Below are positions 10,630 through 44,421 of a DNA stretch of 64,000 nt, piece after piece; position 1 is the first letter of the stretch; each line of letters opens with the position of its first letter. Where the stretch lies: NCBI GenBank assembly GCA_040007095.1, contig JBDTVS010000058.1, positions 15,719 through 79,718 on the forward strand, written 5' to 3'. The notes beneath the pieces are model-generated. The model searched no databases. It saw only the letters and a list, made by a program, of their open reading frames with translations, and was not told where the DNA came from. Both the position numbers and the translations under genes were made by a program. The DNA comes from Acidobacteriota bacterium. Its GTDB lineage: Bacteria; Acidobacteriota; Vicinamibacteria; Vicinamibacterales; CAVVIG01.

Positions 10630-10925
10630 TCGTTCCTCCCTATGTGGACGGTCGGTTGATCAAAGTGTAGCCACTTGCCATCAGCGATTGCCAGCCGACT
10701 CCGTTCCCGGCGCTCGCTCGTGGCCCGGGCACTCCAGAACGGGCAGCCGCGGGTATTTCGGGAAGCGGTCATCCGACAACGAGCGGTGGCAAAGGACGAA
10801 CATCGACCCGCGCGGCGTGACCACTTCCCTGGCCTGGGTGCAGACACCGCACAGCCCGATGCCGCGTGCCGAGATCGCCCGGCCCGTGCCCTCTCGGTCC
10901 ATCGGCCCAGTATACCTGGCCGAAA

Positions 10926-10997
10926 GCGCGGCGCTCGCAATGTTCGCTGGCGCGGCCTGCTTTCAGGCCATGTCGAGAGACGGCGAACTTCCGCGAG
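10926..10997 (+). repeat. F1 repeat family, truncated copy (right arm only)
   Basis: gcgcggcgctcgcaatgttcgc..gcggcctgctttcaggcc..cgaacttccgcgagg aligns with the right arm of the copy at 18831-19108. No left arm is present. Confidence 0.6.
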
Positions 10998-11135
10998 GCA
11001 TCGCGCGACGACAATCGATCCGGACTTATTGCCACGGCGGCTGCATCGCGGGCGGCGTGCAATCTTGTACAAGAAGGGAGGCAGAAGAAGTGTACTGTCA
11101 AGGAAGGGAACACGTTCGTTCAGTAAGGAGTCACT

Positions 11136-11735
11136 ATGCAGGTTGGCATGACCATCGCGTTCGCACTGACACTGGCAGCCGGGCAAGCGCCGGTGGATGT
11201 CCGTCAGATGTACGACTCGGGCCGATACCAGGACGTGGTGAAGGCAAACGAGCAGGCGACCGCGGACGACGACCGGACCTCCCGGCTGCGATTTCTGACG
11301 GCGCAAAGCTACGCCAAGTTGAACGACGGCGACGCAGCGCGGCGCACCTATCAGCGTCTGGCCGAGGGCGGGGCGAGCCCCTGGGCCTCGATCGGAAAAT
11401 CCGCCCTGCAGTTGATGGACAAGCAACTGGACCAGTCGCTCGAATCCGCCAACCAGGCGGTGCGCGCGGGCGACTCGCTGCCCGAGGCGCACTACCAGCG
11501 CGGGATCGTCCTGATGTCGAAAATGGAGTACGGCGAGGCGGCCAGCGCGTTCGCCAAGGCGACGCAACTCGACCCGACGTTCGCTGCCGCCAACTACTAC
11601 GGCGGCCTGGCCAACTACCGCGCGAAACGAATCGACCTGATGACGAACAACTTCGAGGCCTTCGTCAAGCTGGCACCCAACGCCCCCGAACGTCAGGAGG
11701 TCGAAGCGATTCTCCGAACGGTTCGTGGCAGGTAG
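11136..11735 (+). CDS. Secreted TPR-repeat protein
   Basis: 199 aa with a short signal-like N-terminus and repeated A/Y/L helical TPR-like units (..AHYQRGIVLMSKMEYGEAASAFAKATQLDPTFAAANYYGGLANY..). Confidence 0.7.
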   Translation: MQVGMTIAFALTLAAGQAPVDVRQMYDSGRYQDVVKANEQATADDDRTSRLRFLTAQSYAKLNDGDAARRTYQRLAEGGASPWASIGKSALQLMDKQLDQSLESANQAVRAGDSLPEAHYQRGIVLMSKMEYGEAASAFAKATQLDPTFAAANYYGGLANYRAKRIDLMTNNFEAFVKLAPNAPERQEVEAILRTVRGR

Positions 11736-11756
11736 TTCAGAAGAACAAGACGGTCA

Positions 11757-11857
11757 GTGAACTCGGAACTGTGAGATGCGAATTGTCTAAGAATCTCGCA
11801 GTCCTTCTGAGTTCTAACTTTTGAGTTTTGAGTTCGGCTGCGTTTTCCAGCAGCCGG
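11757..11857 (+). repeat. F2 repeat family copy a (AT-rich, hairpin plus T-rich tract)
   Basis: gtgaactcggaact..aagaatctcgcagtccttctgagttctaacttttgagttttgagttcggctgcgttttccagcagccgg is shared with 21153-21252 and 44289-44421. It lies between two convergent genes. Confidence 0.65.
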
Positions 11858-14800
11858 CTAAAACGACTGGCCGAGTGAGAAGAACCATTGGACGCGTGAT
11901 TCGCCCGGCTTCGGGCTGACGGGTGTCGCCACGTCCGCTCGGAGCAGCGCGAACGGGGTCTGCACCCGCAGGCCGAATCCGGCGCCAGCTCGCAGACTAC
12001 CGAAGCCGAGATCGCCAATGGTTGGAAACGCGTTCCCGGCATCGAAGAAACCGACGCCCCGGAATCGCCACGCAATCGGGAACCGCAGCTCCTGGTTGAG
12101 CACCAACAGCGCATTGCCGCCCGTGGGATCGCCGAACACGTCGACGGGTCCGAGCATATCGTCCTTGAATCCGCGCACGCTGTTGCCGCCCCCCGCGTAG
12201 AACCGCTCGCTGCGAATCAAATCCTGACCGTAACCGGCGCCGAGCCCCAGTCGCCCGGACGTGGCGAAGACCAGCCGGTGTCCCAGCGTTCGATAGTAGT
12301 TCTGCTGGAAGAAGTACTTGGCGAATCGCAGGTCGGAGCCAAGCGGGCCCGCGCCGTATTCGAACGTCGACGAGAGGAGCACGCCCCGCGTCGCATCCCC
12401 CAAATCGTTCCGCGTGTCGACGAGCGCGGTCGCCGTCAGCCGTGCGATGTTCACGGTGAGATCGAACGCGAACGGGTCGTCCGGATTCGCATCAGGATCG
12501 AAGGAGTGGTTGCGCTGGAAGTTGTAGCTGTAGGCCAGTTGCAGTTTGCGGCCGGCGCGAAACCGCTGCTCCGCGGTGAACTCCGCCTTGTCGGTGATGA
12601 ACGGCTGCGTGGTCTCGGCGCCGAACCGCTCGCGCGATCGCGCAAGAAAGAGATTCGACGTCAGCGGCAGACCAAAGAATGACGGTGTGGAGAAGAACGC
12701 CCGAGCCGCTTCGAAATCTTTGGTATAGCGCAGCGCGAGACCGGTAGTGGCGGCCCGGCCGAGCACATTGCGGTAGGTCGCGTCGGCAGCCACGCCTGGC
12801 CGCAGATCCCGGGTTTCACTCGCCGGCTGCCGTTGATCGTCAACCTCGAAGCCGTAGCGAACGCGGAGCGGGGGCCATTCGTCCACGGTCACGCGTGCCT
12901 GCATTGGCTGTTCGACGACCGCCGGAGCGTCAACCGCCGGAGCATCCGCCGGAGCGTCAACCGCCGGGGCATTCGCCGGAGCATCGACTGTTGGCGCGCC
13001 AGCCGCCGGCGCCGGTTCAAGCGGGACAGCCTGTATGTCGACCTGACGAAACACGCTGGTGTCGTACAACCGCTTGCGCGCCTGCGCCCACGCCAATCGA
13101 TCGACAGGCTGGCCGACATCGAGCTTGAGCTCGCGGCTGACCAGCTCCGGGTCGGTCCGCCGCACGCCCTCGGTCGAGACGGATCGCAGGACCTGGCGCG
13201 GCCCCTGGTCGATATTGACGGTCAGGGCCACGAGCCCCGTCGCACGAGTGGCCTGACTCGTCAAGGTGACGCGCACCGCATTGAACCCGTCGGCTCGATA
13301 GGCGCTGGTCAGCGCCTGCACCGCCGTGTCGGCGGTCGCGCGAGTCCAGGCCGCCCCCGGCTCGAGCCCAAACGCCTTCCGGTCGGCCTCCGGCGTGCGC
13401 GCGCGAGCGCCCGCGACAGCAACGCTTTCGAGGTGGAAGAGCGGGCCCTCGGCAATCGTGATCGGCAGTGTCGCCGCGGCGCCATCGATCTCGGGCGCAC
13501 CAATCGTCACCGCCGCATCGAGATTCCCCTCGTTGCGATACATCGTCGTGATCGACCGCACCAGCGCCGCAGGATCGATCCAGGGCGAGGCGCCCGCGGC
13601 CGCCAACTCCTCGAGCCTGGCGCTGCTGACGCGCTCGTGGCCACTGAAGCGAAGGGTCTGGCGCGTAAAGCGGGGGCCAGGTTCGACGCGGACCACCAGA
13701 TGTTTTTCGTCGCCCGCCTTCAGCTCGATCGCGGTCGTCGCCGTCGCGAGGAGATAGCGGTCGCGAATCATCGCCGCGCGCGCCGCGTTCCTGGCTTCGT
13801 CGAGCAGAAAGCCGTCGAAGACCGCCTGGGACCAGAGACGCTCCAGTTCGCGACGAAGACTCCGGTCGTTGGCGATGCCCGAGATATCGACGAGGGTCCG
13901 GGGACCCCGATCGATGTCGTAGGTCAGATCGACCGCTGCGGCGGCCGCGGCCTCCGAGCCGGAACGGTGCGCCGAAGCGCGCGCCTCGAAATAGCCGTCC
14001 CCACGGAGCCTGGCCTCGAGCCGATCGCGATCCTGCTGCCAACGGAAGAAGTCGAACGCCTTGCCTGCGGTCAGCCGCAACTGGCGCGTGAGCTCGTCCT
14101 CGGGAAGGCCGGGCGTGCCCGTGAACCGCACCGAGGCAATCCGCGCGACGGGGCGGGAAACCGGCGGCGGACCCGTTGTGGCGCCGCCGATCGTCACATC
14201 GTGACGGAAGTCGTAGATGCGACTCTCGTTGTCCACCGAGACGAAGCGAAGCTCGATGCTCGCCTTCGGCCGATAGCCGACGATCCACGTGAGCTTGCCG
14301 CTGTCCTTGAGGCTTTGCGAGAACACCACCTCCACGTTTCGTGTGACCTGCTTGCCGAACGTGAGGCGTGAGGCCGGATCCGTCTCGCTCGCGACCAGCC
14401 CGGCGTCGAACCGGACGTCCTGGCCTCGTTCGATTCGCAGCGCATCGAGACCGAGCGCGCGGCCCGTGACGCCCAGCACTTCGCCGGAAAGATAGCCGAT
14501 CACCTGATCGCTGCCGACCGCCAGTGCGCTGGCGTTCTCTTTCTGTCCGGTGACCAGCAGCGACACGATTTCGCCCTGACTGAGGGGCGGCTCGGAGGTG
14601 AGGGTCGTTTCAAGCGTTGCGGGGGTACCCTTCAGCGCCATCGTGACGTCAACGCCCGCAATTCGCGTCAAGGCGGTGAGCGTAAGGTCGGGCTCGATTC
14701 GCGTGGGGTTGGAAAAATCGACCACGCCCGCGCCGACGATCTGGTAGACGTTGCCGCCAAGAAAAATGCGGCCGCCTTCACGGACTTCGGCCCGGCCGAG

Positions 14801-17800
14801 CAAGGTTGGCGCCGTCAGCGTGCCCCCGATCCGCACGTCCGCCGCCAGCGCCATCTTGGCGTAGTTGTTGTCCACGACGATGTCCTCGGACGTGGTGAGG
14901 CGGATGTCGAGCGTCAGCATGTCGGCAGCCGACGGAGCATCGAGCTGAACGCCGGCGGGCGACAACTGCAACGCCTGCAGAAGGCCCGAAGCCAGCGAGA
15001 TCGGCTCGCGATACGAACCGCCGAGCACGGACGCATCGCCCGAGAGCGAGAATGCGCCACGGTCCACGGCCAGGCTCAGTTCAAAATCCGCCTCGGTCTT
15101 GAGCGCTTCCGGGATCGCCAGCGCGAGACTGCGACCGCTAATCGCCAACCGCCCGCTCGTGAGCCGCAGACCCGCATGTTTCAGCGTGCCGGCGACCGAG
15201 ACCGTCCCACCGTTGGCCTGGCCCTCGACGCCGGACACCTTGAGCTCGTCCCGGGACAACACGAGACTGCCGGTGAGGTCGGTAATCGCGAGACGGGGCG
15301 ACGCGTTGCGCCATTCGACGGCTTGCAGATCGATGCGGCCGTCGAGCTGCGGATCAGCGATGGCGCCCGACGCGCGGGCGCTGACGACCGCTCGGCCTTG
15401 CGTGGCGACGCCGGGGAGAAACGCGCCAAGCGCGCGCAGATCGATGGTCCCATCGGCTGACACGTCCAGTGTGGGAGGGCCGTCGAACTGGCCGTCGAAC
15501 TGGACGCCGCCGCTCAACGAAAACCGATTGCCGGCGCCGCCCCAGTTCCACTCGACAATCTCGGCACGCCCGTTCGCCACGTCGACTCGCGTGGGCTGCT
15601 GCTGCTCAAACGGCACGCCGGCCACTCCCAGCGCGACATGATCCAGGACGAGTTGTCCGTGGACGGACGACAGCACCGGGCGATCCGCGTCGAGCGTCAA
15701 GGTGCCCGACACGAGGCCCGTTACCTGCGACAGTGTGTCAGCCGGCACGAACGGGGCCAGCACGGCCGGTGTGATCGAGTCGATCCGCGCCCTCAAGCGT
15801 CCGACTGTTTGCTGTGCCGCTGGCGCGCCCGTGAGCCAGCCTGGAACCTGCGGCGCGACGAGCGCGATCGGCACGTCGCCGGTGGCCGAAACGGTGGCGC
15901 CCTGCCAGGCCGCATCGAGACGGGAGACGGAAACGACGCCGGCGTCGTATGCCGCGCGCAGGTTCAGCGACATCGCCTCTGACCTACCGTCGATCACCAC
16001 CCGGCCTTCGTCCAGGCTCGCGACGGCGCTGAGTGCGGGACGATCGAGCGAGCCCGGTGCGCGCACGTCGACATGCACGGGCCCGGCGAGCTGCACGCGA
16101 CCGATCGAGCTCCCGGCTGGAAGAAAAGCCGACGCCACCTGCTCGAGATCGCGAGCGTCGCCATCGAGCGACACGGCGAGCGTGCCCGGCCGGTCGGCCC
16201 CGAGCTCTCCGGCGGCGTGCAGCTCACTGCCGCCAACGTTGAGGGTGAGTTCCGTGATACCGAGCGTCTTGCCGTCGTAGCTCGCCTGCCCGGGCCGCGT
16301 CGCACGCACGGGCACGTCGCCGACCGCCCCATCCAGGCGTTGAAGATCCAGGGTGGTGCGCAGGTGGGCGAGATCCTGTTGGCTGCCTTGCGCGTGCACC
16401 GTGAACGAAGCGGTGCCGGTCACGGGTGCATCCAAGGCGATGCGCATTCGCGATGCCAGGGACGCCAGGTCCGCGTCTTTCGTCTGGGTCTCAATCGCCA
16501 GGCTACCGCCGGCGTCAAGGCCCACGTTGGCAGTGCCGGTTGTAAAGAGATCGGCGAGATCGAAGCCGGCGTCCAGCCGATGATCCTTCAGGGCGAGGCG
16601 CGCTGTGACGCGGCCCAGGTCGCGATCGAGGACGTGCGTTTCGTCGAGCGCCAACTCGCCGGTGCCCTCGGGATCCTCGATGGTGCCCCGCGCGCGCCAC
16701 TCGCCGCTCAGCCTCGCGGTGATCGGCGCGAGGATCTCGTCAGGCCGGGCGCCAGGAACGGGAACGACCGTAAAATGGTCGGCCGACAAGAGCGCCGCGA
16801 GCTGGCCCGTGCGCAGGTCGTAGTCTCCGTTGCCTGTCAGAGTGCCACCGGCTTGCGTCAACCGCAGCGATTGAATGCGCGCCATCTGCGGGGTGAGCGT
16901 GAATGAGGCTTCGAGGCGATCGGCCGATTGTCCCGCGATCGACATCGCGTCGCCGACGAGCCGGCCATCCAGGGCGGGAACCTTTGCGGTGCCGGACACC
17001 GTGGCGGAGAGCGTGAGCCCGCCCGATGGCCGCAGAACCGCCGGGACAATGCCGTTCAACTGACCGAGCTCGGGCAGCTCGGCTTCGACCTGGCCGGCGA
17101 TCGTCGGGTTCTCGATGCGGCCCGAGAGCGTCAGTTCGGCGCGGCCGCCGCCGCTCACGCTCGGCGGGGACGAAGTGGTGGCGAGACCGACATCGTGCAG
17201 CGTCTGCCAGATCTCGGGCCACGAGTCCGCAGTCGCGACGAGGTTCGCGTCGATCGTCGATGCGGACGTCGATGCGGACGTCGATGCGGACGTCGATACG
17301 GACGGCGACGCCGGTGTCAGCCGCCCGGCCGCGTACCCTTCGAGGTGCACCGCATCTTCGAGCCAGTGGTCGAACGAGGCTTGCCACTCTCCCTCGCTCA
17401 GCTCGGCGTTCGCCGTGCCGTTCACGCCAAGCACGCGTACGTCGCCGGAGTTCGATCGGGTCGTCGATCGGGTCGTAGCCTCGATTTCTCCCGAAAGTCC
17501 GTCGATCGTCCACGCGGTCCACGTCGCCGTGGCTTGGCCATCAAGCAGCGCGTTCACCTTCACCGGCGTCTTCGTATCGAGCGCCTTGAGGAGGCTGGTG
17601 ACGTCCATGTCACGCCACTCGACGCGGGCTCGAGCCAGCTCCGTTCCCGGGGACGAAGAGGACAGCGAGACACGGCCACTCCCGGTCGCCGTGCCACCGA
17701 GCAAGCGAAGGTTGATGGATCCGAGCTCGACGGCGGTCCGGTCGATCTGTGCGGACGCGTCAGCGGCGACATTCGTCAAGCCCTGCCAAGCGAGGTCCTG

Positions 17801-18685
17801 CGATCCAACAGTCAGATCGGCGCGCGGTTCGTTGAGGCTGCCGGTGGCGTGTGCCTTGAAGGTCAGGTGACCGGATGGATTCGGGCCAGGCCCCAACCAG
17901 GCCGCGAGGCGGTTGAGATCCACGCTGCCGTTGGCGTCGATCGCCATCGGCAATCCCACGGAGAGCACGCCGACGGAACCTGCGGCCGTCACCGTGGCTT
18001 CGGGCGTGGACAGCTGCAACGAATCGGTCGACAGCGACGAACCGTTCCACCCGATTCGGGCAGTGAGCGCGAGCTCCGTCGTGCGGCCGCGAGCCCGAAG
18101 CGTGGCCGGACGACCGAGGGTCAGCGTGCCGGTCGCACCTCGCGCGGTCGGGAGCAAGTTGAGCGACAGGCGATCTGCCTCGCCACTCATCCCAAGCACT
18201 TCGTCCTGCCAGACGATGGACACGTTCGAGAGCGCCAGGGCACCAATCGGAAATGGCGAGGGACGCTCTGTGCCGCTCGCCGGCTTCGACTCGGGAAGGT
18301 TGGTCGAGCCATCCTGCCGCCGCAGAATGGCGATGCGGATACCGTCGCCGGACAGCGAGGAGACGCCCAGGCGGCCGCGAAGAATCGACCGCGGCAACGT
18401 CACGTCGAGCCGCGCGGCCTCGAGGAATGGATGCTGCGTATCCGTGGTCGCCGACGCCACCAACTGCTCGACGTGGACGCTCAGCGTCGCGAGGTTGTAC
18501 GAGAGGGCGGCCGTCCGTATCGTGATCCCGCGCGCCAGCAATTGCGACGCCGCCCATTGACCGACGCGGGCCTGGACCCACGGAAGGTGCGCGCCCAGCA
18601 CGATGGCTGCGAGGCACAGGCCCACTACGAGGCCTGCCAGGCCAACCCAGAGCGCGATTGATCGAAGCCTGTGGCGAGACGTCAT
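11858..18685 (-). CDS. Fusion of a TamB/AsmA-like translocation-assembly protein (N-terminal ~1500 aa) to a POTRA plus Omp85/TamA-BamA-like beta-barrel (C-terminal ~760 aa)
   Basis: Uninterrupted 2275-aa ORF. N-terminal signal-anchor, then long beta-rich repeats. DUF490-like end (..LSQGEIVSLLVTGQ...LTFGKQVTRNVEVVFSQSL...WIVGYRP..). POTRA-like units follow (..IASVRFTGTPGLPEDELTRQL..). Omp85 barrel ending in ..VQWFFSLGQSF. Confidence 0.85.
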   Translation of the reverse strand: MTSRHRLRSIALWVGLAGLVVGLCLAAIVLGAHLPWVQARVGQWAASQLLARGITIRTAALSYNLATLSVHVEQLVASATTDTQHPFLEAARLDVTLPRSILRGRLGVSSLSGDGIRIAILRRQDGSTNLPESKPASGTERPSPFPIGALALSNVSIVWQDEVLGMSGEADRLSLNLLPTARGATGTLTLGRPATLRARGRTTELALTARIGWNGSSLSTDSLQLSTPEATVTAAGSVGVLSVGLPMAIDANGSVDLNRLAAWLGPGPNPSGHLTFKAHATGSLNEPRADLTVGSQDLAWQGLTNVAADASAQIDRTAVELGSINLRLLGGTATGSGRVSLSSSSPGTELARARVEWRDMDVTSLLKALDTKTPVKVNALLDGQATATWTAWTIDGLSGEIEATTRSTTRSNSGDVRVLGVNGTANAELSEGEWQASFDHWLEDAVHLEGYAAGRLTPASPSVSTSASTSASTSASTIDANLVATADSWPEIWQTLHDVGLATTSSPPSVSGGGRAELTLSGRIENPTIAGQVEAELPELGQLNGIVPAVLRPSGGLTLSATVSGTAKVPALDGRLVGDAMSIAGQSADRLEASFTLTPQMARIQSLRLTQAGGTLTGNGDYDLRTGQLAALLSADHFTVVPVPGARPDEILAPITARLSGEWRARGTIEDPEGTGELALDETHVLDRDLGRVTARLALKDHRLDAGFDLADLFTTGTANVGLDAGGSLAIETQTKDADLASLASRMRIALDAPVTGTASFTVHAQGSQQDLAHLRTTLDLQRLDGAVGDVPVRATRPGQASYDGKTLGITELTLNVGGSELHAAGELGADRPGTLAVSLDGDARDLEQVASAFLPAGSSIGRVQLAGPVHVDVRAPGSLDRPALSAVASLDEGRVVIDGRSEAMSLNLRAAYDAGVVSVSRLDAAWQGATVSATGDVPIALVAPQVPGWLTGAPAAQQTVGRLRARIDSITPAVLAPFVPADTLSQVTGLVSGTLTLDADRPVLSSVHGQLVLDHVALGVAGVPFEQQQPTRVDVANGRAEIVEWNWGGAGNRFSLSGGVQFDGQFDGPPTLDVSADGTIDLRALGAFLPGVATQGRAVVSARASGAIADPQLDGRIDLQAVEWRNASPRLAITDLTGSLVLSRDELKVSGVEGQANGGTVSVAGTLKHAGLRLTSGRLAISGRSLALAIPEALKTEADFELSLAVDRGAFSLSGDASVLGGSYREPISLASGLLQALQLSPAGVQLDAPSAADMLTLDIRLTTSEDIVVDNNYAKMALAADVRIGGTLTAPTLLGRAEVREGGRIFLGGNVYQIVGAGVVDFSNPTRIEPDLTLTALTRIAGVDVTMALKGTPATLETTLTSEPPLSQGEIVSLLVTGQKENASALAVGSDQVIGYLSGEVLGVTGRALGLDALRIERGQDVRFDAGLVASETDPASRLTFGKQVTRNVEVVFSQSLKDSGKLTWIVGYRPKASIELRFVSVDNESRIYDFRHDVTIGGATTGPPPVSRPVARIASVRFTGTPGLPEDELTRQLRLTAGKAFDFFRWQQDRDRLEARLRGDGYFEARASAHRSGSEAAAAAAVDLTYDIDRGPRTLVDISGIANDRSLRRELERLWSQAVFDGFLLDEARNAARAAMIRDRYLLATATTAIELKAGDEKHLVVRVEPGPRFTRQTLRFSGHERVSSARLEELAAAGASPWIDPAALVRSITTMYRNEGNLDAAVTIGAPEIDGAAATLPITIAEGPLFHLESVAVAGARARTPEADRKAFGLEPGAAWTRATADTAVQALTSAYRADGFNAVRVTLTSQATRATGLVALTVNIDQGPRQVLRSVSTEGVRRTDPELVSRELKLDVGQPVDRLAWAQARKRLYDTSVFRQVDIQAVPLEPAPAAGAPTVDAPANAPAVDAPADAPAVDAPAVVEQPMQARVTVDEWPPLRVRYGFEVDDQRQPASETRDLRPGVAADATYRNVLGRAATTGLALRYTKDFEAARAFFSTPSFFGLPLTSNLFLARSRERFGAETTQPFITDKAEFTAEQRFRAGRKLQLAYSYNFQRNHSFDPDANPDDPFAFDLTVNIARLTATALVDTRNDLGDATRGVLLSSTFEYGAGPLGSDLRFAKYFFQQNYYRTLGHRLVFATSGRLGLGAGYGQDLIRSERFYAGGGNSVRGFKDDMLGPVDVFGDPTGGNALLVLNQELRFPIAWRFRGVGFFDAGNAFPTIGDLGFGSLRAGAGFGLRVQTPFALLRADVATPVSPKPGESRVQWFFSLGQSF
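12917..12987. repeat. In-frame coding tandem repeat (VDAPA(N/D)APA units) inside the Omp85-like part
   Basis: ccgccggagcgtcaac/cgccggagcatc units are reiterated. They translate on the minus strand to APANAPAVDAPADAPAVDAPAV. Confidence 0.7.
17256..17303. repeat. In-frame 12-bp tandem repeat x4 (STSA units) inside the TamB-like part
   Basis: gtcgatgcggac x3 plus gtcgatacggac. It translates on the minus strand to STSASTSASTSAST. Confidence 0.8.
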
Positions 18686-18830
18686 CGATAGCTGCGCTCA
18701 TCCGATCCTACCCGCGTTCCTTCAGTGGGCCGCCTGGTGATTGTGAGGGGCAGAATGTAACCACGGAAACACGAAGACTCGGAAACAGCGTGCGCTGTCT
18801 TGCTGGACGTAGGTCCGGCGCAGCGTATCG

Positions 18831-19108
18831 ATGCCGTTCGGAAATTCCACTACGGTTTTCGGCCTGAAACCAGGCCGCTCTGCGAACAGCTCGACGCCGG
18901 GGCCCCCGGCGCGGCAGCCGCGCTGGGGTGGGGCGCCGCGGGAACCCGCCGCTTCAGGACTTGTCGGTGGTATGCGGCAGGTCCGCGACCTGCCGCGGAT
19001 CCTGGCCTTGCGCGGCGGTTTCCCGTCTGTCGCGCGAGACGCGGCGCTCGCACCGTTCGCTTCGCGGCCTGCTTTCAGGCCGTCTCGAGAGACCGCGAAT
19101 TTCCGAGA
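18831..19108 (+). repeat. F1 repeat family, full copy A (long imperfect hairpin, variant subfamily)
   Basis: Termini atgccgttcggaaattc ... gaatttccgaga are inverted. The conserved core gcgaacagctcgacgcc / ggtttcccgtctgtcgcgcgag / gcggcgctcgcaccgttcgc is shared with copies B and C. It lies 145 bp upstream of the TamB-fusion gene start. Confidence 0.7.
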
Positions 19109-19314
19109 ATCGAGTCGTCATGCGCCGGGGCGCACCCCCCATAGCGTGAAAACGTGATCGCACACGAACGGAGTAGTGTCCGGCTTCAGCCGGACCCGGA
19201 CGTTTGCACCGTCATTTTCTGAACAGCCACACCGAATGCACCGAGGTAGAAATTTGGATTTTCCGGTGTTCTCGGTGATCTCCGTGGTTGACCTTGAAAC
19301 TTGTCGGGGTCAGG

Positions 19315-19683
19315 TCACTGATGGCGAGACGAGTCGGCCACGAGCATCGACAGGACGGTGCTGACGAAGCTCACGACCAGCGCGCCCCAGAAAGCGGCCC
19401 AGAAACCGCTGACGTGGAAGCCCAACCCGAGGCCTTCCGACAGCGAGCTGGTCAGCCACAGCATCAGGCCGTTGACGACCAGCGCGAAGATGCCGAGCGT
19501 GAGGATGATGAGCGGAAACGTCAACACCTTCGCGACGGGCCTGATGAAGGCATTGACCACGCCGAAGACGGCCGCCACCCCAAGAAACGGAAGCCAACCG
19601 CCGGCAAACGTGACACCTGGCACCACGTTCGTCGCGACCCACAGCGCCGCGGCGTTCACGAGCAATCGAACCACAAATGGCAT
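19315..19683 (-). CDS. Phage-holin-family / DUF360 (YvlD-like) small membrane protein
   Basis: 122 aa with four predicted TM helices. 'LLVNAAALWVA...VPG....GGW..FLGVAAVFGVVNAFIRP' matches the DUF360 pattern. Confidence 0.7.
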   Translation of the reverse strand: MPFVVRLLVNAAALWVATNVVPGVTFAGGWLPFLGVAAVFGVVNAFIRPVAKVLTFPLIILTLGIFALVVNGLMLWLTSSLSEGLGLGFHVSGFWAAFWGALVVSFVSTVLSMLVADSSRHQ

Positions 19684-19833
19684 GATGTGCGCCTTTCACC
19701 GGCACGACCCGCCGGCACCATCCGTCCGCCCCGCGAAGCCAGCTTACCCGTTGGAACGCATTGCAGAACTGAAATCCTGTGAACCACAAAGACACAAAGA
19801 ACAGGTCTCATTTCGCAATTTGCTCTTAGCTGG

Positions 19834-20739
19834 TTACGGCCGCGGACGATCGAGCGCGGTCCGATCCCAGCCGGCCAGCGTCGCCGCCACGTCGTAGCTG
19901 CTGCCGACAAACGTCAGGATGGCCTGCTCGGGCGAGGCGGCGGTCCTGACGGCATCGTACGGCAGGATGAACTCGCCGAGCTCGCGGTGATAGTACGCGC
20001 CCTGCGGCCCAACCGATGCCTCTTTGAAGCCCGGCGGCTCCGGAACGGCGTACGAATAGAACACCGGCTCGGGAAGCGGCCCGCCCCCCGGCCAGAATCC
20101 GTGGCTGATGACCTCGTGCGAATACGCCTCGCGCATGAACGCGGGGCCTTCGCGCGGCGGCGCCGGCTTGCCGGAGAAACGTGTCACCGCCAGATCGAAG
20201 GCGCCCCAGAAGAAATGGACCGGGCTGCTCTTCCCCACAAACGCGCACTGCGAGAGGGTGAACACGCGCGCGACCTGCGAGAAAATCCGCCAGCAGCGGT
20301 TCGCGTACACCGGATCGTATGCCGCGTGGGTCCTGTCCTGGTCGAATCGGATCGGCGAGGCGACCTCTACCGGCACCGGCCAGATCTTCACCGGCAGGCC
20401 CATCGCGGAGAGCGTCGACATCACCGCGGCGTAGAAATCGGCGACCGTCTGCGGCCGTAGCGCCAGCATCCGCGACTCGCCATCCGACGTCCGGATGACG
20501 AGCTGATGTGCGATGAAATCGAACTGGATGGTGAAGGAACGATGGCCGTGCGAAAGGGTCCGCGTGGACAACCCGGTGGGCGTGATTTGCAGCGCAATCG
20601 CCCAGGAATGATTGAGCGGCGGCGCCAGCGCGAGCGCCACCTTGCCGACCACCTGCGTCCACATGTGCACGGTCTCGCAGGTGTCCTGCCATGCCGCATA
20701 GGGCAGCGCCGGCCAGAGCTCTTCGGTCACACTCGTCAT
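19834..20739 (-). CDS. DUF5996 family protein
   Basis: 301 aa. The N-terminus 'WPALPYAAWQDTCETVHMWTQVVGKVALALAP' matches my memory of the DUF5996 signature. Confidence 0.7.
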   Translation of the reverse strand: MTSVTEELWPALPYAAWQDTCETVHMWTQVVGKVALALAPPLNHSWAIALQITPTGLSTRTLSHGHRSFTIQFDFIAHQLVIRTSDGESRMLALRPQTVADFYAAVMSTLSAMGLPVKIWPVPVEVASPIRFDQDRTHAAYDPVYANRCWRIFSQVARVFTLSQCAFVGKSSPVHFFWGAFDLAVTRFSGKPAPPREGPAFMREAYSHEVISHGFWPGGGPLPEPVFYSYAVPEPPGFKEASVGPQGAYYHRELGEFILPYDAVRTAASPEQAILTFVGSSYDVAATLAGWDRTALDRPRP

Positions 20740-20788
20740 TGGAATCGTCCTTTAGTCCTGCGCCCCGGTGTTTAGCCAGACGTTGGTC

Positions 20789-21025
20789 ATGCCTTTCGGA
20801 AATTCAAACGCGAGCATGACCGGAAAATGAGTCGCTCCGCGAACAGCTCGACGCCGCCGGAAACCGCTTCTCCGGGTCAGGTGTACAGAGGCGCAGCTCC
20901 GCGAGCTGCGCCGGACTCGGCCCTCCGTACGCGGTTTCCCGTCTGTCGCGCGAGGGCGCGGCGCTCGCAACGTTCGCTTCGCGACTCATTTTCCGGTCAT
21001 TTCCTCGTGGAGCGAATTTCCGAGA
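20789..21025 (+). repeat. F1 repeat family, full copy B
   Basis: atgcctttcggaaattc..catgaccggaaaatgagtcgc..[core]..gcgactcattttccggtcat..gaatttccgagag. The two arms are reverse complements, and the apex palindrome is ggcgcagctccgcgagctgcgcc. Confidence 0.75.
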
Positions 21026-21152
21026 GCGATAAATCGTTGGCGGGGCCTACGTTACCACGCCACTTTTCGAATCGAAACACGAGGGAACATGCCATGATCA
21101 CAGAAACGGGGCGTCCACATCGGCCCTTGTCTCGATTCACGACATGGTCTTC

Positions 21153-21252
21153 GTGAACTCAGAACTTTGAAGTAAGAATCCCCGAGCAATCTCGCGGTCG
21201 TTCTAAGTTCTGACTTTTGAATTTTCAGTTTGGCTGCGTTTTTCAGCAGCGG
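21153..21252 (+). repeat. F2 repeat family copy b
   Basis: gtgaactcagaacttt..gcaatctcgcggtcgttctaagttctgacttttgaattttcagtttggctgcgtttttcagcagcgg aligns with copies a and c. Confidence 0.65.
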
Positions 21253-21267
21253 TAAAGGATCTCCCCC

Positions 21268-21537
21268 ATGGAAAGTGCACCATGTCCTCATATCGCCTCG
21301 GTCGAAATCGTCAAACATCCCAAGAAACTGGAGTGCGTGGAGTGCGTCGCCATCGGCGCTGACTGGGTACATCTGCGCACCTGCCAGAGTTGCGGGGTGA
21401 CGCTCTGCTGTGATTCGTCGCCGAACCGCCACGCCAGCAAGCACGCGCGCAGCAGCAAGCATCCAGTGATCGCGTCCGCCCAGCCGGGCGAACGCTGGCT
21501 GTACTGCTACCCGGACGACCAGATGGCCGACTATTAG
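21268..21537 (+). CDS. UBP-type zinc-finger domain protein
   Basis: 89 aa. 'C.H......K...C.EC......WVHLR.C..CG...CCDSS.N.HA.KH...S.HPV' is the zf-UBP Cys/His pattern. Confidence 0.8.
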   Translation: MESAPCPHIASVEIVKHPKKLECVECVAIGADWVHLRTCQSCGVTLCCDSSPNRHASKHARSSKHPVIASAQPGERWLYCYPDDQMADY

Positions 21538-39388: not shown

Positions 39389-40467
39389 TGAACGGCGGCG
39401 TTTCAGCGTGGCAGCTGATCGGTGAGTGCGTTCGTGGCGCGTCCCACGTGCGGAACGTTTCGCCGAATCAGGATGCGATTGCGTGGCGAGTCGATTCGAC
39501 GACGAACCGTGCGGCCATCATGGCCGTGTCCGACGGTCACGGCAGCGCGAAGTGCTTTCGAAGCGATGCGGGGTCCAGGCTCGCCGTGAACGCGGCCCTT
39601 CGCATCCTGGAAAGTTTTGCATGCAATCCCGCGCCGGTGGATCTGACGGCAGTGGATGGTCAGGCGGCGGATGGTACCGCGGCGGATGCCAAGGCGAACG
39701 ATGGCATCGAAGCCGGGCGCAATGGGCCTGATGGGAACGGGGCCGCGCCCGATCGCCACTCCCGACTGGCTCAGAACATCGTCCTCGAATGGCAGAAGGA
39801 TGTCGACGCGGCGCTAGAGGAGCATCCGCTTTCAACCGAGGAGATGGAGTCGCTCGAGGCGCGAGAGGGCGCCGCGGCTCGTCAGGCCGTGGACCGCAAT
39901 CCTCGCCTGGCTTACGGCGCCACGCTGCTTGCCGCGGTGATTACCGATGCCTACATCCTCTACCTTCAGCTCGGCGACGGCGACATCGTCACCGTCTCGG
40001 ATACGGGGGCCGCGAGCCGGCCGCTCGAACACGATCAGCGGTTGTTCGCGAACGAGACGACGTCGCTCTGCGCCCGAGACGCCTGGCGCGAGATTCGCGT
40101 TCGCTGCGACGAACCGGCCGAACCGGCGCCCGCGTTGATCCTGCTGTCAACCGACGGCTACGCCAATTCCTTCAGAACCGATGCGGGATTTCTGGCGGTG
40201 GGATCGGATCTGCTCGAGATCATCCGCGCCGAAGGGCTCGACAGCGTCGGCGGTCATCTGGAGGGCTGGCTGACCGAGACGTCCCAGGGCGGCAGCGGCG
40301 ATGACATTACACTTGGCATTCTGTGCCGGATGGACGCGGTCGCGTCGTCCAGTAGGTCGTCCAGTAGGTCGTCCAGTAGGTCGTCCAGCAGGTCGTCCAG
40401 CAGATCGCCCGGCGACGACCCGGCGATCCCGCCCGGACCCGCGGACACAACCGAAGTGGCCCGTTGA
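39388..40467 (+). CDS. PP2C-family Ser/Thr protein phosphatase with a C-terminal (SSSR)5 tail
   Basis: Start chosen at MNGGVSAWQLIGECVRGASHVRN..NQDA. Motifs '..AVSDGHGS..' and '..LLSTDGY..' match PP2C metal-binding signatures. Confidence 0.85.
   Translation: MNGGVSAWQLIGECVRGASHVRNVSPNQDAIAWRVDSTTNRAAIMAVSDGHGSAKCFRSDAGSRLAVNAALRILESFACNPAPVDLTAVDGQAADGTAADAKANDGIEAGRNGPDGNGAAPDRHSRLAQNIVLEWQKDVDAALEEHPLSTEEMESLEAREGAAARQAVDRNPRLAYGATLLAAVITDAYILYLQLGDGDIVTVSDTGAASRPLEHDQRLFANETTSLCARDAWREIRVRCDEPAEPAPALILLSTDGYANSFRTDAGFLAVGSDLLEIIRAEGLDSVGGHLEGWLTETSQGGSGDDITLGILCRMDAVASSSRSSSRSSSRSSSRSSSRSPGDDPAIPPGPADTTEVAR
40344..40403. repeat. In-frame 12-bp tandem repeat x5 encoding (SSSR)5
   Basis: gtcgtccagtag x3 followed by gtcgtccagcag x2. 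Confidence 0.85.
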
Positions 40468-41786
40468 ACCAGATCCTCGAGACCAATCAGATCGTACGGA
40501 CCAGCCCTTCGGCCCTGCAGTGCCGGGTTCTGCGGCTGCTCGGGGGCGGCGGACAGGGCGAAGTCTATCTGGCCGATCTCCACGGCAAGCTGGTCGCCTT
40601 GAAGTGGTATCGGCCGATCGCGGCCACGCCACGGCAGCAGACCGGACTCGAAGAGCTCGTGAGGAAGGGGTCTCCAGACGAGCGGTTTCTCTGGCCGCTC
40701 GAGCTGGCGTTCGACCCCCAGACTCCCGGATTCGGGTACGTGATGCTGCTGCGCGAGCCGCGCTTCAAGAGCCTCTACGATCTGATGAAGTGCCGGATCG
40801 CGCCGAGCTTTCGCACGCTCGCCACGGTCGGCCTGTCGCTGTCGGACGCGTTCCTCCGCTTGCATTCCCAGGGCCTCTGCTACCGGGACATCAATTTCGG
40901 CAACGTGTTCTTCGATCCCGATACCGGCGAGGTTCTGATTTGCGATAACGACAACGTCGCGGTTGACGGAGAAGACGAGGGCGTGCTCGGCACGCCGCGT
41001 TTCATGGCGCCCGAGATCGTGCGCGGCGACGCCAGGCCGACGTCGCAATCCGATTTGTTCTCGCTGGCCGTGCTGCTCTTCTACATCTTCATGGTGCACC
41101 ACCCGCTCGAAGGTGCCCAGGAAGCGTCGATCAAGGCGCTCGATGCGCCGGCGATGAAGTGGCTGTACGGCACCAAGCCGGTATTCATCTTCGATCCCGT
41201 CGATCGATGCAATGCGCCGGTGCCCGGACTGCACGACAACGCGGTGATCTACTGGTCGATCTACCCGCAGTTTTTCCGCGACCTCTTCACCAAGGCGTTC
41301 ACCGACGGGATCCGTGATCCGCGCAACGGCAGGGTGCGCGAGAGTGAATGGCGCGCCACGATGGTCCGGCTGCGGGACTCGATCGTTTATTGTCCCGCCT
41401 GCAATGAGCAGAACTTCTACGACGGCGACGCGCTGAAAGCGTCCGGCGGCAAGGCACCAGCATGCTGGGCCTGTCAGAAGGAGGTTCGCCTGCCGCCGCG
41501 AATCCGGATCGGCAAGAGCACAATCGTGATGCTCAACCACGACACGCGCCTGTTCCCGCACCATGTGGACGACCGCTGCGGCTACGATTTCTCCGAGCCG
41601 ATCGCGGAGGTGGCGAAGCATCCGACCGACGCGCGGATCTGGGGGCTCAAGAACGTCTCGAAGACACAATGGACCGGCCAGATCGCCGACGGCACGACCA
41701 GGGATGTGCCGCCAGGACGCAGCGTAACGCTGGCGGCCGGGACACGGATCAATTTCGGTCAGCGAGAGGGCGAGATTCGGGTGTGA
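40464..41786 (+). CDS. Ser/Thr protein kinase with a C-terminal zinc ribbon and an FHA-like module
   Basis: 440 aa. The TTG start overlaps the PP2C stop. Gly-loop LGGGGQGEVY, VALK lysine, catalytic YRDINFGN, DND (DFG-equivalent), GTPRFMAPE. Then CPAC...CWAC, then a module containing ..AEVAKHPTDARIWGLKNVSKTQW......V.PGRSVTL..G..INFG. Confidence 0.9.
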   Translation: MNQILETNQIVRTSPSALQCRVLRLLGGGGQGEVYLADLHGKLVALKWYRPIAATPRQQTGLEELVRKGSPDERFLWPLELAFDPQTPGFGYVMLLREPRFKSLYDLMKCRIAPSFRTLATVGLSLSDAFLRLHSQGLCYRDINFGNVFFDPDTGEVLICDNDNVAVDGEDEGVLGTPRFMAPEIVRGDARPTSQSDLFSLAVLLFYIFMVHHPLEGAQEASIKALDAPAMKWLYGTKPVFIFDPVDRCNAPVPGLHDNAVIYWSIYPQFFRDLFTKAFTDGIRDPRNGRVRESEWRATMVRLRDSIVYCPACNEQNFYDGDALKASGGKAPACWACQKEVRLPPRIRIGKSTIVMLNHDTRLFPHHVDDRCGYDFSEPIAEVAKHPTDARIWGLKNVSKTQWTGQIADGTTRDVPPGRSVTLAAGTRINFGQREGEIRV

Positions 41787-41941
41787 GCCTGATGCCGTTG
41801 GGAAATTCCGTAACGGTTTGTGGCCTGAGACCAGGGCGCTCCAGGCAAGCGACGAGCAACGTGAGCAGGCGATAGACAGCGGACCAGAATGTTTATGTGA
41901 TTCGTTTCGGTTCCCACACCGAACGGTTTTGCGGATCAGCC

Positions 41942-42805: not shown

Positions 42806-43068
42806 GGACGTTCGAACGACCTCTCTGCTTTCATAGCCGGCCGGAATCGAACGAAAGACTGAGCCGGGATTCCACGTGCCATTGGTGCCGTCGTAGGGTT
42901 CGAAGACGGGCGCTGCCGTGTCTTTGTAGATGATGCAGCACGATGCGGCCGGGCTGACGGGGCCGACCCACGGACATGCCCACGCGCCCTCCGACGCATC
43001 CTCGGTCCCGTGGTTGGCGTGCCGGCACGAGCCGCAGGTGTCAGCCGCGACGTTGTGGGTCAACGTTC

Positions 43069-43306
43069 ATGCCTTCCGGAAATTCAAGCGCGAGCATGAC
43101 CAAAAAATAAGTCGCTTTGCGAACAGCTCGGCGCCGCGGGAAACCGCTGCTCCGGGTTGTGGATACAGCAGGCGCAGCTCCGCGAGCTGCGCCGGACTTG
43201 GCCCTTCGTGCGCGCTTTCCCGTCTGTCGCAAGCGTCGCGGCGCTCGCAACGTTCGCTCTCGCGACCCATTTTCCGGTCATTTCGTCAGTGCAGTAATTT
43301 CCGAAA
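43069..43306 (+). repeat. F1 repeat family, full copy C
   Basis: atgccttccggaaattc..catgaccaaaaaataagtcgc..[core, apex ggcgcagctccgcgagctgcgcc]..gcgacccattttccggtcat..aatttccgaaa. It lies 213 bp upstream of cpsB. Confidence 0.75.
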
Positions 43307-43518
43307 GGCCTGCTCATTATCACCGCGTTCGGCCACTTCGCTGTGCGCCTGGCCTGAATCGGCAGCAGCGCGGGCTGGACATCGTATGCTGTACGAGTGC
43401 CAGCACAGAGCAGGAACACCACTTTGCGCGACGCTCTCAAGGTTCGGTCCGCGGTCGATTTTCGGCCAGTGTGTCCAAAGGAATCTAACAAAGCCTCATA
43501 GGTACGGGAAGGATTGAG

Positions 43519-44288: not shown

Positions 44289-44421
44289 GTGAAGAATGAG
44301 CTTTGATCCAGAGGTCGCAAAGAACTCCTCCTGTTCTTGCGTTCTCCAGCAATCTTGCAGCTTTCTAACTTCTGCCTTCTGAGTTTTGAGTTTCAGTTCG
44401 GCGGCGTCTTTTCAGCAGCCG
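44289..44421 (+). repeat. F2 repeat family copy c
   Basis: ..gcaatcttgcagctttctaacttctgccttctgagttttgagtttcagttcggcggcgtcttttcagcagccg aligns with copies a and b. It lies between convergent genes. Confidence 0.6.

What the first reader, a model, noticed from the sequence alone, without database searches (positions are those of the whole stretch)
20789..21025. F1: a ~240-bp intergenic hairpin repeat family (three full copies plus one half copy), always 5' of genes
The copies lie at 18831-19108, 20789-21025 and 43069-43306, with a right-arm fragment at 10926-10997. All are in the same orientation. Each full copy is a long imperfect palindrome. The termini (atgcc(t)ttcggaaattc ... gaatttccga(g/a)a) and most internal blocks pair with each other (gcgaacagctcgacgcc with ggcgctcgcaacgttcgc; cggaaaccgc with gcggtttccc). 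Every copy sits in a promoter-proximal gap: upstream of the TamB-fusion gene, between the DUF5996 and zf-UBP genes, upstream of cpsB, and upstream of the TPR gene. The ORFs called through them are low-complexity shadows. The elements could be MITE-like mobile hairpins, structured RNAs or protein-binding cruciforms.
Basis: seen in the sequence. Interest (0 to 1): 0.65.

Follow-up and report, generated by a model that had tools for sequence, protein, structure and literature searches.

The report
Hairpin-shaped miniature transposon family (MITE)
The repeats are copies and remnants of a small non-coding "jumping" DNA element (a MITE) found in soil Acidobacteriota. It is an ordinary kind of feature but an undescribed family, and its two arms have stayed complementary through matched mutations.

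Summary
The window has three full copies (18829-19115, 20787-21032, 43067-43313) and the right-arm fragment (10922-11003). All are in + orientation, and each full copy folds end to end into a hairpin (z -3.6 to -7.9).

The family is best read as a miniature inverted-repeat transposable element:
- It has 19-bp terminal inverted repeats, NAATGCCnTTCGGAAATTC.
- Perfect 10-bp target duplications abut the repeats in two relatives' copies.
- The target has a strongly preferred YTAR centre (P ~6e-12).
- Two close relatives have syntenic sites without copies A and B.
- A 127-bp deletion derivative keeps both ends.
- Remnants decay differently at shared sites.
- No frame is conserved, and there is no Rfam match.

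Homologues occur only in Acidobacteriota MAGs and soil metagenome contigs.

The ends and the duplication length match the IS4 subgroup of the IS4 family. E. coli IS4 itself ends in TAATGCC. No transposase was found, so this link is inferred.

A 19-bp subterminal stem covaries strongly, so arm pairing is maintained. There is no strand-specific wobble signal.

"Always 5' of genes" adds nothing beyond intergenic location. Verdict: a new member of a known kind, of modest interest.

The parts
18829..19115 (+). Copy A, full element (287 bp). It lies between the holin_4_2-like gene (19315-19683, -) and the start of the TamB/Omp85 fusion gene (18685, -).
   Evidence: nhmmer E 3e-69. DNA fold z -5.75. 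Absent from the syntenic spacers of L053 and L055.
18896..18934 (+). Optional ~39-nt GC-rich branch hairpin in the left arm of copy A (CCCCGGCGCGGC-A-GCCGCGCTGGGG).
   Evidence: The same module sits at the same position in the otherwise divergent copy L037 and in the L053 127-bp derivative. It folds as its own stem.
20787..21032 (+). Copy B, full element (246 bp), in the divergent spacer between DUF5996 (start 20739, -) and zf-UBP (start 21268, +).
   Evidence: nhmmer E 1e-78. RNA fold z -7.85 and DNA fold z -5.96. Absent from the orthologous spacer in L053 and L055.
20787..20805 (+). Left terminal inverted repeat of B (TCATGCCTTTCGGAAATTC).
   Evidence: Family consensus is NAATGCCnTTCGGAAATTC.
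21014..21032 (+). Right terminal inverted repeat of B (GAATTTCCGAGAGCGATAA, degenerate at its tip).
20817..20835 (+). Left half of the covarying subterminal stem of B (TGACCGGAAAATGAGTCGC).
   Evidence: Pairs with 20981-20999. 15 of 19 pairs change on both sides across 15 copies.
20981..20999 (+). Right half of the covarying subterminal stem of B (GCGACTCATTTTCCGGTCA).
20839..20977 (+). Conserved core of B, from GCGAAC to GTTCGC. It contains an asymmetric right-arm bulge (TCTGTCGC plus ~7 variable nt) and the apical hairpin at 20890-20912.
   Evidence: Alignments A2 and A3. The apical stem shows a C-G to G-C swap, 7 versus 10 copies.
43067..43313 (+). Copy C, full element (247 bp), between ORF 41897-42805 (+) and cpsB (43519-44280, +).
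   Evidence: nhmmer E 6e-80. DNA fold z -3.58.
10922..11003 (+). Fragment D, right arm only, upstream of the TPR gene (11136-11735, +).
   Evidence: nhmmer E 2e-15. At the orthologous place, relative L053 keeps only a left-arm fragment.
41790..41858 (+). Fragment E, left arm only (new). It starts 5 nt after the stop codon of the Ser/Thr kinase gene (40464-41786).
   Evidence: E 8e-5. The orthologous locus L044 (80% nt identity in the downstream gene) carries a full copy with the same unusual terminus, ATGCCGTTGGGAAATTC.

Best explanation
The repeats are copies and decayed remnants of a non-autonomous DNA transposon (a MITE) of about 245 bp that encodes nothing.

Shown:
- It carries 19-bp terminal inverted repeats, NAATGCCnTTCGGAAATTC.
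- It duplicates 10 bp of target.
- It strongly prefers targets with YTAR at positions 4-7 of those 10 bp. These tetranucleotides are very rare in these GC-rich genomes and often belong to stop codons, which fits the element lying between genes.
- Copies are gained and lost between close relatives.
- Copies decay by internal deletion.

Inferred:
- A DDE transposase encoded elsewhere binds the terminal repeats, cuts the element out and pastes it in with a 10-bp staggered cut.
- That transposase is most likely of the IS4 subgroup of the IS4 family, because the termini (NAATR, identical to TAATGCC of E. coli IS4) and the 10-13-bp duplication match that subgroup.

The whole element is a foldback. 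A 19-bp subterminal stem is kept complementary through compensatory changes, so pairing of the two arms is selected or homogenised. It would form as single-stranded DNA, as a cruciform, or in read-through transcripts of either strand. Which of these matters is not known. The confidence given is for the MITE reading; the IS4-subgroup assignment on its own is at roughly even odds.
For: Family and hairpin:
- establish the repeat family; establish the hairpin.

Terminal repeats:
- Both ends of 13 aligned full copies carry them; one search finds the same 18-mer (<=3 mismatches) at the ends of elements in 24 loci and the window.

Target duplications:
- Flanks are identical 10/10 in strict register at L031 (GGCCTAATCG) and L048 (TCCCTAAGGG).
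- The best score among 210 mismatched flank pairs was 8/10.
- L044, L043 and B show imperfect duplications.

Target preference:
- YTAR occupies positions 4-7 of the 10 nt abutting the left end in 5 of 14 copies.
- The background frequency is 0.0013 per position, giving P = 6e-12.

Empty sites:
- L053 and L055 (DUF5996 93% and 91% identical, same gene order) lack copy B in an otherwise alignable spacer.
- Both also lack copy A.

Decay and turnover:
- A 127-bp derivative with both ends lies at L053:4009-4135.
- At the D locus, the window and L053 keep opposite arms.
- At the E locus, L044 has a full copy where the window has a fragment.

Distribution:
- True homologues occur only in four loci of three Acidobacteriota MAGs among 29 hits in species-representative genomes.
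- All 23 metagenome contigs hit are true homologues, many of them broken at the repeat.

Non-coding status.

IS4 link:
- IS4 in E. coli K-12 ends in TAATGCCAGTCAGTTAAG / TAATGCCGATCAGTTAAGG, with an abutting 12-bp duplication.
- PMC2266710 Table 1 gives the IS4 subgroup ends as '-AATR--------WTW----' and direct repeats of 10-13 bp.

Arm covariation:
- 88% of cells pair versus 74.5% in shuffles (0 of 500 reach the observed value).
- 15 of 19 stem pairs have changes on both sides.
- Slid controls pair at 30-41%.
Against: - No transposase or full-length parent element with these ends was found. None occurs among 40 window ORFs scanned with Pfam, in the called genes of L053-L055, or as a pair of terminal repeats at IS-like spacing in 389 kb of fetched sequence.
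- Only 2 of 15 copies have perfect duplications, and none of the three window copies has a clean one.
- The IS4 'WTW' positions 14-16 are not matched in register (AAA here, with ATT two bases later).
- The terminal match to IS4 covers only 7-8 bases and was found by following a recollection, so it is suggestive, not proof.
- Covariation and a core more conserved than the arms are not needed by a simple cut-and-paste MITE. They hint at an additional constraint.
- Core conservation is partly an artefact, because the collection scans required exact core motifs.
Confidence: 0.8

Rival explanations
1. It is a MITE, but it is mobilised by a transposase outside the IS4 family, such as ISAs1 or IS481, which can also give 8-10-bp or 4-15-bp duplications. 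The match to IS4 termini would then be coincidental.
For: No transposase was found. The terminal identity with IS4 is only 7-8 nt. The WTW positions do not match in register (PMC2266710 Table 1).
Against: The relaxed first base followed by AATR, together with a duplication of about one helical turn, is the stated hallmark of the IS4 subgroup (PMC2266710). The duplication abuts NAATGCC exactly as in E. coli IS4. The end sequences I recall for ISAs1 and IS481 do not resemble this terminus, but that is memory and was not tested.
Confidence: 0.15
2. It is a multicopy structured RNA, either an sRNA gene or a cis-acting RNA hairpin that tunes stability or termination of neighbouring mRNAs. The repeats would be maintained for that function.
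For: Folding is very stable. The subterminal stem covaries strongly. The apical stem shows a C-G to G-C swap. The core is more conserved than the arms, even in the copy not selected by the search pattern (L047b). Most copies lie where read-through from neighbouring genes is plausible.
Against: - No Rfam family matches at the gathering threshold or at E <= 10.
- No promoter-like or terminator-like consensus lies in or beside the elements.
- Orientation relative to flanking genes is mixed.
- Both strands fold equally well, and wobble-type mismatches are symmetric: 38 on one strand versus 31 on the other, with 107 transversion mismatches.
- Target duplications, empty sites and terminal repeats are transposon features.
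- Fragments persist without the partner arm (D and E).
Confidence: 0.07
3. It is a host-maintained palindromic repeat of the REP/BIME kind, or a protein-binding cruciform, spread by a RAYT-type enzyme or by recombination rather than by a DDE transposase.
For: It is intergenic and palindromic. Shorter REP-like hairpins (GTCCGGCTKMAGCCGGAC) are also present in these genomes. All five window members share one orientation.
Against: REPs are 20-40 bp and carry GTAG or CGTC tags at one end (PMC3733652). This element is ~245 bp, has NAATGCC ends and has 10-bp target duplications. Two copies in L047 lie in opposite orientation 960 bp apart, so orientation is not fixed. Five of five in one orientation has only a 1-in-16 chance probability.
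Confidence: 0.04
4. The elements are integron attC sites or a cluster of attC sites lacking an integrase.
For: They are imperfect palindromes, share one orientation, and lie between genes.
Against: The length is 245 bp, against my recollection of roughly 57-141 bp for attC. The termini do not carry the RYYYAAC / GTTRRRY core sites (read). Neighbouring genes are large housekeeping genes in both orientations, not promoterless cassettes. No integrase domain was found.
Confidence: 0.01

Closest known systems
IS4 subgroup of the IS4 family (type element IS4 of E. coli) and MITE-like derivatives of IS4-family elements (I recall the IS231-derived MIC231 cassettes of Bacillus cereus; not checked here)
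   Same: The terminus has a relaxed first base followed by AATR, and TAATGCC is identical to E. coli IS4. The target duplication is about one helical turn (10 bp here, 12 bp at IS4 in K-12, 10-13 for the subgroup) and abuts the terminal repeat directly. Target specificity is marked (PMC2266710).
   Different: No transposase gene and no full-length partner were found. The element is 245 bp rather than 1.4-1.65 kb. The repeat diverges from IS4 after about base 11. The whole element is a foldback with covarying arms, which is not a described IS4 feature.
ERIC/IRU elements of enterobacteria
   Same: Both are intergenic imperfect palindromes that fold over their whole length, occur with optional internal insertions at fixed positions, and are often co-transcribed with neighbours. 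This rests on my knowledge of the ERIC literature and was not tested here.
   Different: The sequences are unrelated. ERIC is about 127 bp. Clear 10-bp target duplications and a YTAR target are shown here.
Correia elements (NEMIS) of Neisseria
   Same: Both are MITEs with terminal inverted repeats that form long hairpins in transcripts and insert next to genes (my knowledge, not tested).
   Different: From my recollection, Correia elements duplicate TA, are 100-155 bp long and have 26-bp repeats. Here the duplication is 10 bp and the repeats are 19 bp with IS4-like tips.
REP/BIME elements with RAYT transposases
   Same: Both are abundant intergenic palindromes in bacterial chromosomes.
   Different: None of this applies here.

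Membership tests
Bacterial MITE (miniature inverted-repeat transposable element) | Small size (under about 500 bp) and no coding capacity | tested here: met
   Full copies are 241-305 bp. No frame is conserved, and B and C stop at codon 14. No Pfam hit. The A ORF has one relative among 5.8 billion proteins.
Bacterial MITE (miniature inverted-repeat transposable element) | Terminal inverted repeats | tested here: met
   NAATGCCnTTCGGAAATTC at both ends of the aligned full copies.
Bacterial MITE (miniature inverted-repeat transposable element) | Target-site duplication of fixed length | tested here: met
   10/10 identical flanks in register at L031 and L048, with a null maximum of 8/10 in 210 pairs. 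Imperfect in L044, L043 and B. Not visible in A and C.
Bacterial MITE (miniature inverted-repeat transposable element) | Multiple dispersed copies and presence/absence between related genomes | tested here: met
   Five members in the window. Copies occur in three Acidobacteriota MAGs and 23 metagenome contigs. Empty sites for A and B exist in L053 and L055.
Bacterial MITE (miniature inverted-repeat transposable element) | An autonomous element with the same terminal repeats that supplies the transposase | not testable with these tools
No transposase occurs in the window or the fetched loci.
IS4 family, IS4 subgroup (as source of the ends) | Ends '-AATR' with a relaxed first base (PMC2266710 Table 1) | tested here: met
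   NAATGCC at most left and right ends. B and C have CATGCC. E. coli IS4 has TAATGCC.
IS4 family, IS4 subgroup (as source of the ends) | 'WTW' at positions 14-16 of the ends | tested here: inconclusive
   Positions 14-16 are AAA here, and ATT follows at positions 16-18. The match exists only with a 2-nt shift (versus PMC2266710).
IS4 family, IS4 subgroup (as source of the ends) | Direct repeats of 10-13 bp | tested here: met
   10 bp here. 12 bp at IS4 in MG1655.
IS4 family, IS4 subgroup (as source of the ends) | Single-ORF transposase with DDE and Y(2)R(3)E(6)K motifs | not testable with these tools
   No partner element was recovered.
REP/BIME | 20-40-bp palindromes with a GTAG or CGTC tag at one end (PMC3733652) | tested here: not met
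   The elements are ~245 bp and end in NAATGCC.
Integron attC | R''/R' core sites RYYYAAC ... GTTRRRY, length about 57-141 bp, promoterless cassettes in one orientation | tested here: not met
   The termini lack these sites and the length is 245 bp. The neighbours are housekeeping genes on both strands.
IS200/IS605-derived palindrome-associated elements | No terminal inverted repeats and no target duplication; subterminal hairpins only | tested here: not met
   Terminal repeats and 10-bp duplications are present.
Any curated RNA family (Rfam 15) | Score at or above the family's gathering threshold | tested here: not met
   No hits in the window at gathering thresholds. Only three chance-level hits at E <= 10 in 18700-21300: Rubella_3 lies inside copy A at less than half its gathering score, and the other two lie outside the elements.

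The most novel reading that the evidence does not exclude
The element may be more than a passive MITE. The covarying subterminal stem, the conserved asymmetric core (a fixed right-arm bulge, TCTGTCGC..., and an apical hairpin with a compensatory swap) and an optional branch hairpin shared by divergent subfamilies could mark a functional folded nucleic acid. One possibility is a single-stranded DNA or cruciform form needed for an unusual, hairpin-dependent mode of mobilisation. Another is an RNA hairpin that the host has co-opted, for example for mRNA processing or stability at the many sites just after stop codons.
Probability: 0.12. Interest if true: 0.55.

Novelty: new member of a known kind. 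Interest (0 to 1): 0.3.

Why it matters
It adds a defined MITE family to Acidobacteriota, a dominant but poorly characterised soil phylum. The description covers ends, duplication length, target motif, subfamilies and decay products.

Practical consequences:
- The family breaks metagenome assemblies; many contigs end inside it.
- It seeds spurious ORF calls.
- It marks recent insertions between close strains, so it can serve as a strain-level marker.
- It may alter expression where it lands, for example in the DUF5996/zf-UBP promoter spacer and ahead of the TamB/BamA-like gene.

The clear covariation between the arms is a clean case for asking why foldback structure is maintained in bacterial MITEs. 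None of this changes current understanding of transposons.

Tried and rejected
- Rfam at gathering thresholds and at E <= 10: nothing relevant.
- tRNA/tmRNA scan: none.
- RNAalifold on the MAFFT alignment recovered only the core and apical stems, because MAFFT misaligns the variable arms. I replaced it with arm-versus-arm comparisons and pair counts on mini-constructs.
- A first column-wise arm comparison was blurred by 1-nt register shifts and was discarded.
- The wobble-asymmetry test for a transcribed strand showed no asymmetry.
- Promoter and terminator consensus scans: none in or beside the elements.
- Plasmid collection, distant BLAST: no match.
- Viral contigs scanned with the terminal repeat: 12 hits, all chance. 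No family homology by nhmmer, and GC of 38-63%.
- Coding hypotheses failed. The ATG in the terminal repeat opens an ORF in A and L047a, but it is not conserved. A protein search with the translated core frame found no candidates. The A ORF found a single relative.
- I could not extend the window's own 151-kb contig: one look-up was not on record and the other returned only a 1.1-kb contig.
- The search for a partner IS found no terminal-repeat pairs at IS spacing in 389 kb. The truncated L010 copy is not the end of an IS. No transposase domains occur in the window ORFs.
- One literature search with poorly chosen terms returned only papers on arachnid mites.
- The integron attC, REP/BIME and IS200/IS605-derivative readings were rejected on their defining features (see membership test).

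Full report
**1. The observation**

Reading the four stated places and running repeat detection confirm a repeat family. A MAFFT alignment and an HMM built from the three full copies agree. A, B and C score E 3e-69 to 6e-80, and the right-arm fragment D scores E 1e-12.

The invariant 21-mer GCGGCGCTCGCAAYGTTCGCT hits exactly these four places at <=3 mismatches, against 0.03 expected. A search with the terminus ATGCCTTTCGGAAATTC recovered both ends of the copies. All five are in + orientation.

Each full copy folds end to end. B folds at -136.3 kcal/mol as RNA (z -7.85), and its complement gives z -6.81. As DNA, A, B and C give z -5.75, -5.96 and -3.58, and no shuffle folded as well.

- A lies between the 3' end of a holin_4_2-like gene and the start of the 2275-aa TamB/POTRA/Omp85 ORF.
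- B lies in the divergent spacer between DUF5996 and zf-UBP.

**2. The family outside the window**

One scan of species-representative genomes with the conserved 21-mer gave 29 loci. nhmmer shows that only four are true homologues, and all come from Acidobacteriota MAGs: L017 and L018 from one MAG, plus L010 and L013. The rest are chance hits.

One scan of metagenome contigs with a two-block core pattern gave 23 contigs, all true homologues. Many contigs end inside the element, as expected for a dispersed repeat. L047 holds two copies in opposite orientation.

There is no match in plasmids. The viral collection gave only chance hits to the terminus. Rfam has nothing at gathering thresholds or at E <= 10.

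**3. Anatomy**

The alignment of 17 copies shows the following parts:
- Terminal inverted repeats, NAATGCCnTTCGGAAATTC ... GAATTTCCGnAAGGCATTN.
- A poorly paired spacer.
- A 19-bp subterminal stem that differs between subfamilies.
- A conserved core, GCGAAC...GTTCGC, with a fixed asymmetric bulge on the right arm (TCTGTCGC plus about 7 variable nt).
- An apical hairpin, GGCGCAGSTCCGYGASCTGCGCC, with a C-G to G-C swap (7 versus 10 copies).

An optional ~39-nt GC-rich branch hairpin sits at one fixed position in the left arm. It is present in A, in the divergent copy L037 and in a derivative in L053.

Core conservation is partly due to how copies were found, because the scans required exact core motifs. 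Even so, L047b, which was found by proximity rather than by pattern, keeps the core better than the arms.

**4. Evidence that it moves**

(a) Target duplications. With the ends placed at NAATGCC and GGCATTN, the 10 nt on either side are identical 10/10 at L031 (GGCCTAATCG) and L048 (TCCCTAAGGG). Among 210 pairings of flanks from different copies, the best score is 8/10. L044, L043 and B show degraded duplications. A, L047a and L050 instead have inverted flanks, as if they had inserted into short palindromes.

(b) Target choice. YTAR occupies positions 4-7 of the 10 nt abutting the left end in 5 of 14 copies. It occurs at only 0.0013 per position in these genomes, giving P = 6e-12. Several copies lie 3-12 nt from the stop codon of a long ORF. 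This fits a target motif that GC-rich genomes carry mostly at stop codons.

(c) Empty sites. Homologues of the DUF5996 protein led to two syntenic contigs, L053 (93% identity) and L055 (91%), with the order zf-UBP / DUF5996 / holin_4_2 / TamB. Their zf-UBP-DUF5996 spacers align with the window on both sides but lack copy B. Their holin-TamB spacers lack copy A.

(d) Decay. L053:4009-4135 is a 127-bp derivative with both ends, a left arm and the optional module. Upstream of the TPR gene, the window keeps a right arm (D) while L053 keeps a left arm at the same place. Upstream of the gene at 41942, the window keeps a left-arm fragment (E). The orthologous contig L044 has a full copy with the same unusual terminus, ATGCCGTTGGGAAATTC, but a different subterminal stem. 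That difference suggests exchange between copies.

**5. Not coding, and not a dedicated RNA gene**

- The ATG in the terminal repeat opens a long ORF in A and L047a, but B and C stop after 13 codons and the frames shift between copies.
- A protein search with the best-conserved frame found no candidate. A's 108-aa ORF has a single relative among 5.8 billion proteins.
- No promoter-like or terminator-like consensus lies in or next to the elements.
- Orientation relative to neighbouring genes is mixed.
- Comparing each left arm with the reverse complement of its right arm gives 1483 matches. Transition mismatches are symmetric, 38 that would be G-U on the + strand against 31 on the - strand, and there are 107 transversion mismatches. 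Folding energies are similar on both strands.

So nothing points to one transcribed strand. This does not exclude selection on hairpins in read-through transcripts, because copies face both ways.

**6. The arms covary**

Each left subterminal stem matches its own right partner much better than the partners of other copies: score 14.3 versus 6.9 +/- 3.0. The own partner ranks first in 10 of 16 copies.

I also counted pairs on mini-constructs of stem plus the GCGAAC/GTTCGC clamp from 15 copies:
- 88% of cells pair, versus 74.5% in shuffles (0 of 500 reach the observed value).
- 15 of the 19 stem pairs have changes on both sides.
- 54 cells carry double changes, versus 18 expected.
- Sliding the partner by 1-3 columns drops pairing to 30-41%.

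The sequences are related and the structure was read from copy B, so these controls overstate significance somewhat. The effect is still large. Pairing of the arms is therefore maintained, either by selection or by homogenisation within the palindrome.

**7. Which transposon kind**

A 10-bp duplication and a terminus beginning NAATG recalled IS4, so I tested the recollection. IS4 in E. coli K-12 (NC_000913.3 4502090-4503515) ends in TAATGCCAGTCAGTTAAG and TAATGCCGATCAGTTAAGG. It is flanked by a 12-bp duplication, ATCTTGGTTCTG, that abuts TAATGCC directly.

The survey of the IS4 family (PMC2266710, Table 1 and text) gives these features for the IS4 subgroup:
- Ends '-AATR--------WTW----'.
- A relaxed first base.
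- Direct repeats of 10-13 bp.
- Marked target specificity in some members.

The element meets the first-base, AATR and duplication criteria. It matches WTW only with a 2-nt shift.

No transposase was found. None of 40 window ORFs has a transposase domain. None is called in L053-L055. No pair of terminal repeats lies at IS-like spacing in 389 kb of fetched sequence. The truncated L010 copy is not an IS end. The IS4 assignment is therefore an inference at roughly even odds. The MITE assignment is well supported.

**8. Comparison with known families, and novelty**

It works like a MITE and meets every testable defining feature of one. It fails the defining features of REP/BIME, integron attC sites and IS200/IS605 derivatives. 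It resembles ERIC and Correia elements in being a foldback that lands next to genes, but it differs from them in sequence, size and duplication.

Literature searches found no description of this family. A large MITE survey mentions Acidobacteria only in passing. I rate it a new member of a known kind.

The most novel reading not excluded is that the covarying stem and the conserved asymmetric core mark a functional folded DNA or RNA, either needed for mobilisation or co-opted by the host. I give that about 0.12.

**9. Verdict**

The 'mobile hairpin' reading is supported. The 'promoter-proximal' emphasis is not informative. Interest is modest, at 0.3.

Noticed in passing
window 11743-11869, 21139-21265, 44342-44427: A second, AT-rich repeat family of ~125 bp has three copies, all in + orientation. 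It contains GAGTTCTRACTTTTGARTTTT and ends in the small hairpin GCTGCGTTTTTCAGCAGC. The 21139-21265 copy is absent from the orthologous zf-UBP/DUF5996 spacer of relatives L053 and L055. It therefore also looks like an insertion, right next to hairpin copy B.
   Followed up: partly
window 19178-19195 and 55285-55302; also L053 ~11600, flanks of L013, L044 and L047a: Short REP-like perfect hairpins, GTCCGGCTKMAGCCGGAC, recur in intergenic DNA of these genomes. Copy L047a appears to have inserted into one.
   Followed up: no
window 11858-18685 (-): One 2275-aa ORF combines DUF748/AsmA-like, TamB, POTRA and Omp85 domains. In the close relative L053 the same region is called as several separate genes. 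Either the fusion is real here or one assembly carries frameshifts.
   Followed up: no
window 46191-46750 and 40344-40410: There are in-frame 12- and 24-nt tandem repeats. A His/Asp/Asn/Gln-rich low-complexity stretch lies in ORF 45835-46782. Five copies of GTCGTCCAGTAG lie at the end of the PP2C phosphatase gene (families D1, D2, D8).
   Followed up: no
L047 4396-4634 (+) and 5791-5594 (-): Two hairpin elements lie in inverted orientation 960 bp apart and bracket an 83-aa ORF. This layout could in principle move as a composite. The second copy has a degraded outer arm.
   Followed up: no
window 43427-43482: There is a weak extra match to the right-arm core (nhmmer E 0.002) about 115 bp downstream of copy C. 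It may be an old remnant or chance.
   Followed up: no
window and acidobacterial loci overall: YTAR tetranucleotides (CTAG, CTAA, TTAG, TTAA) occur at only 0.0013 per position, which I judge far below what base composition alone would give. The preferred targets of the element are therefore scarce.
   Followed up: partly
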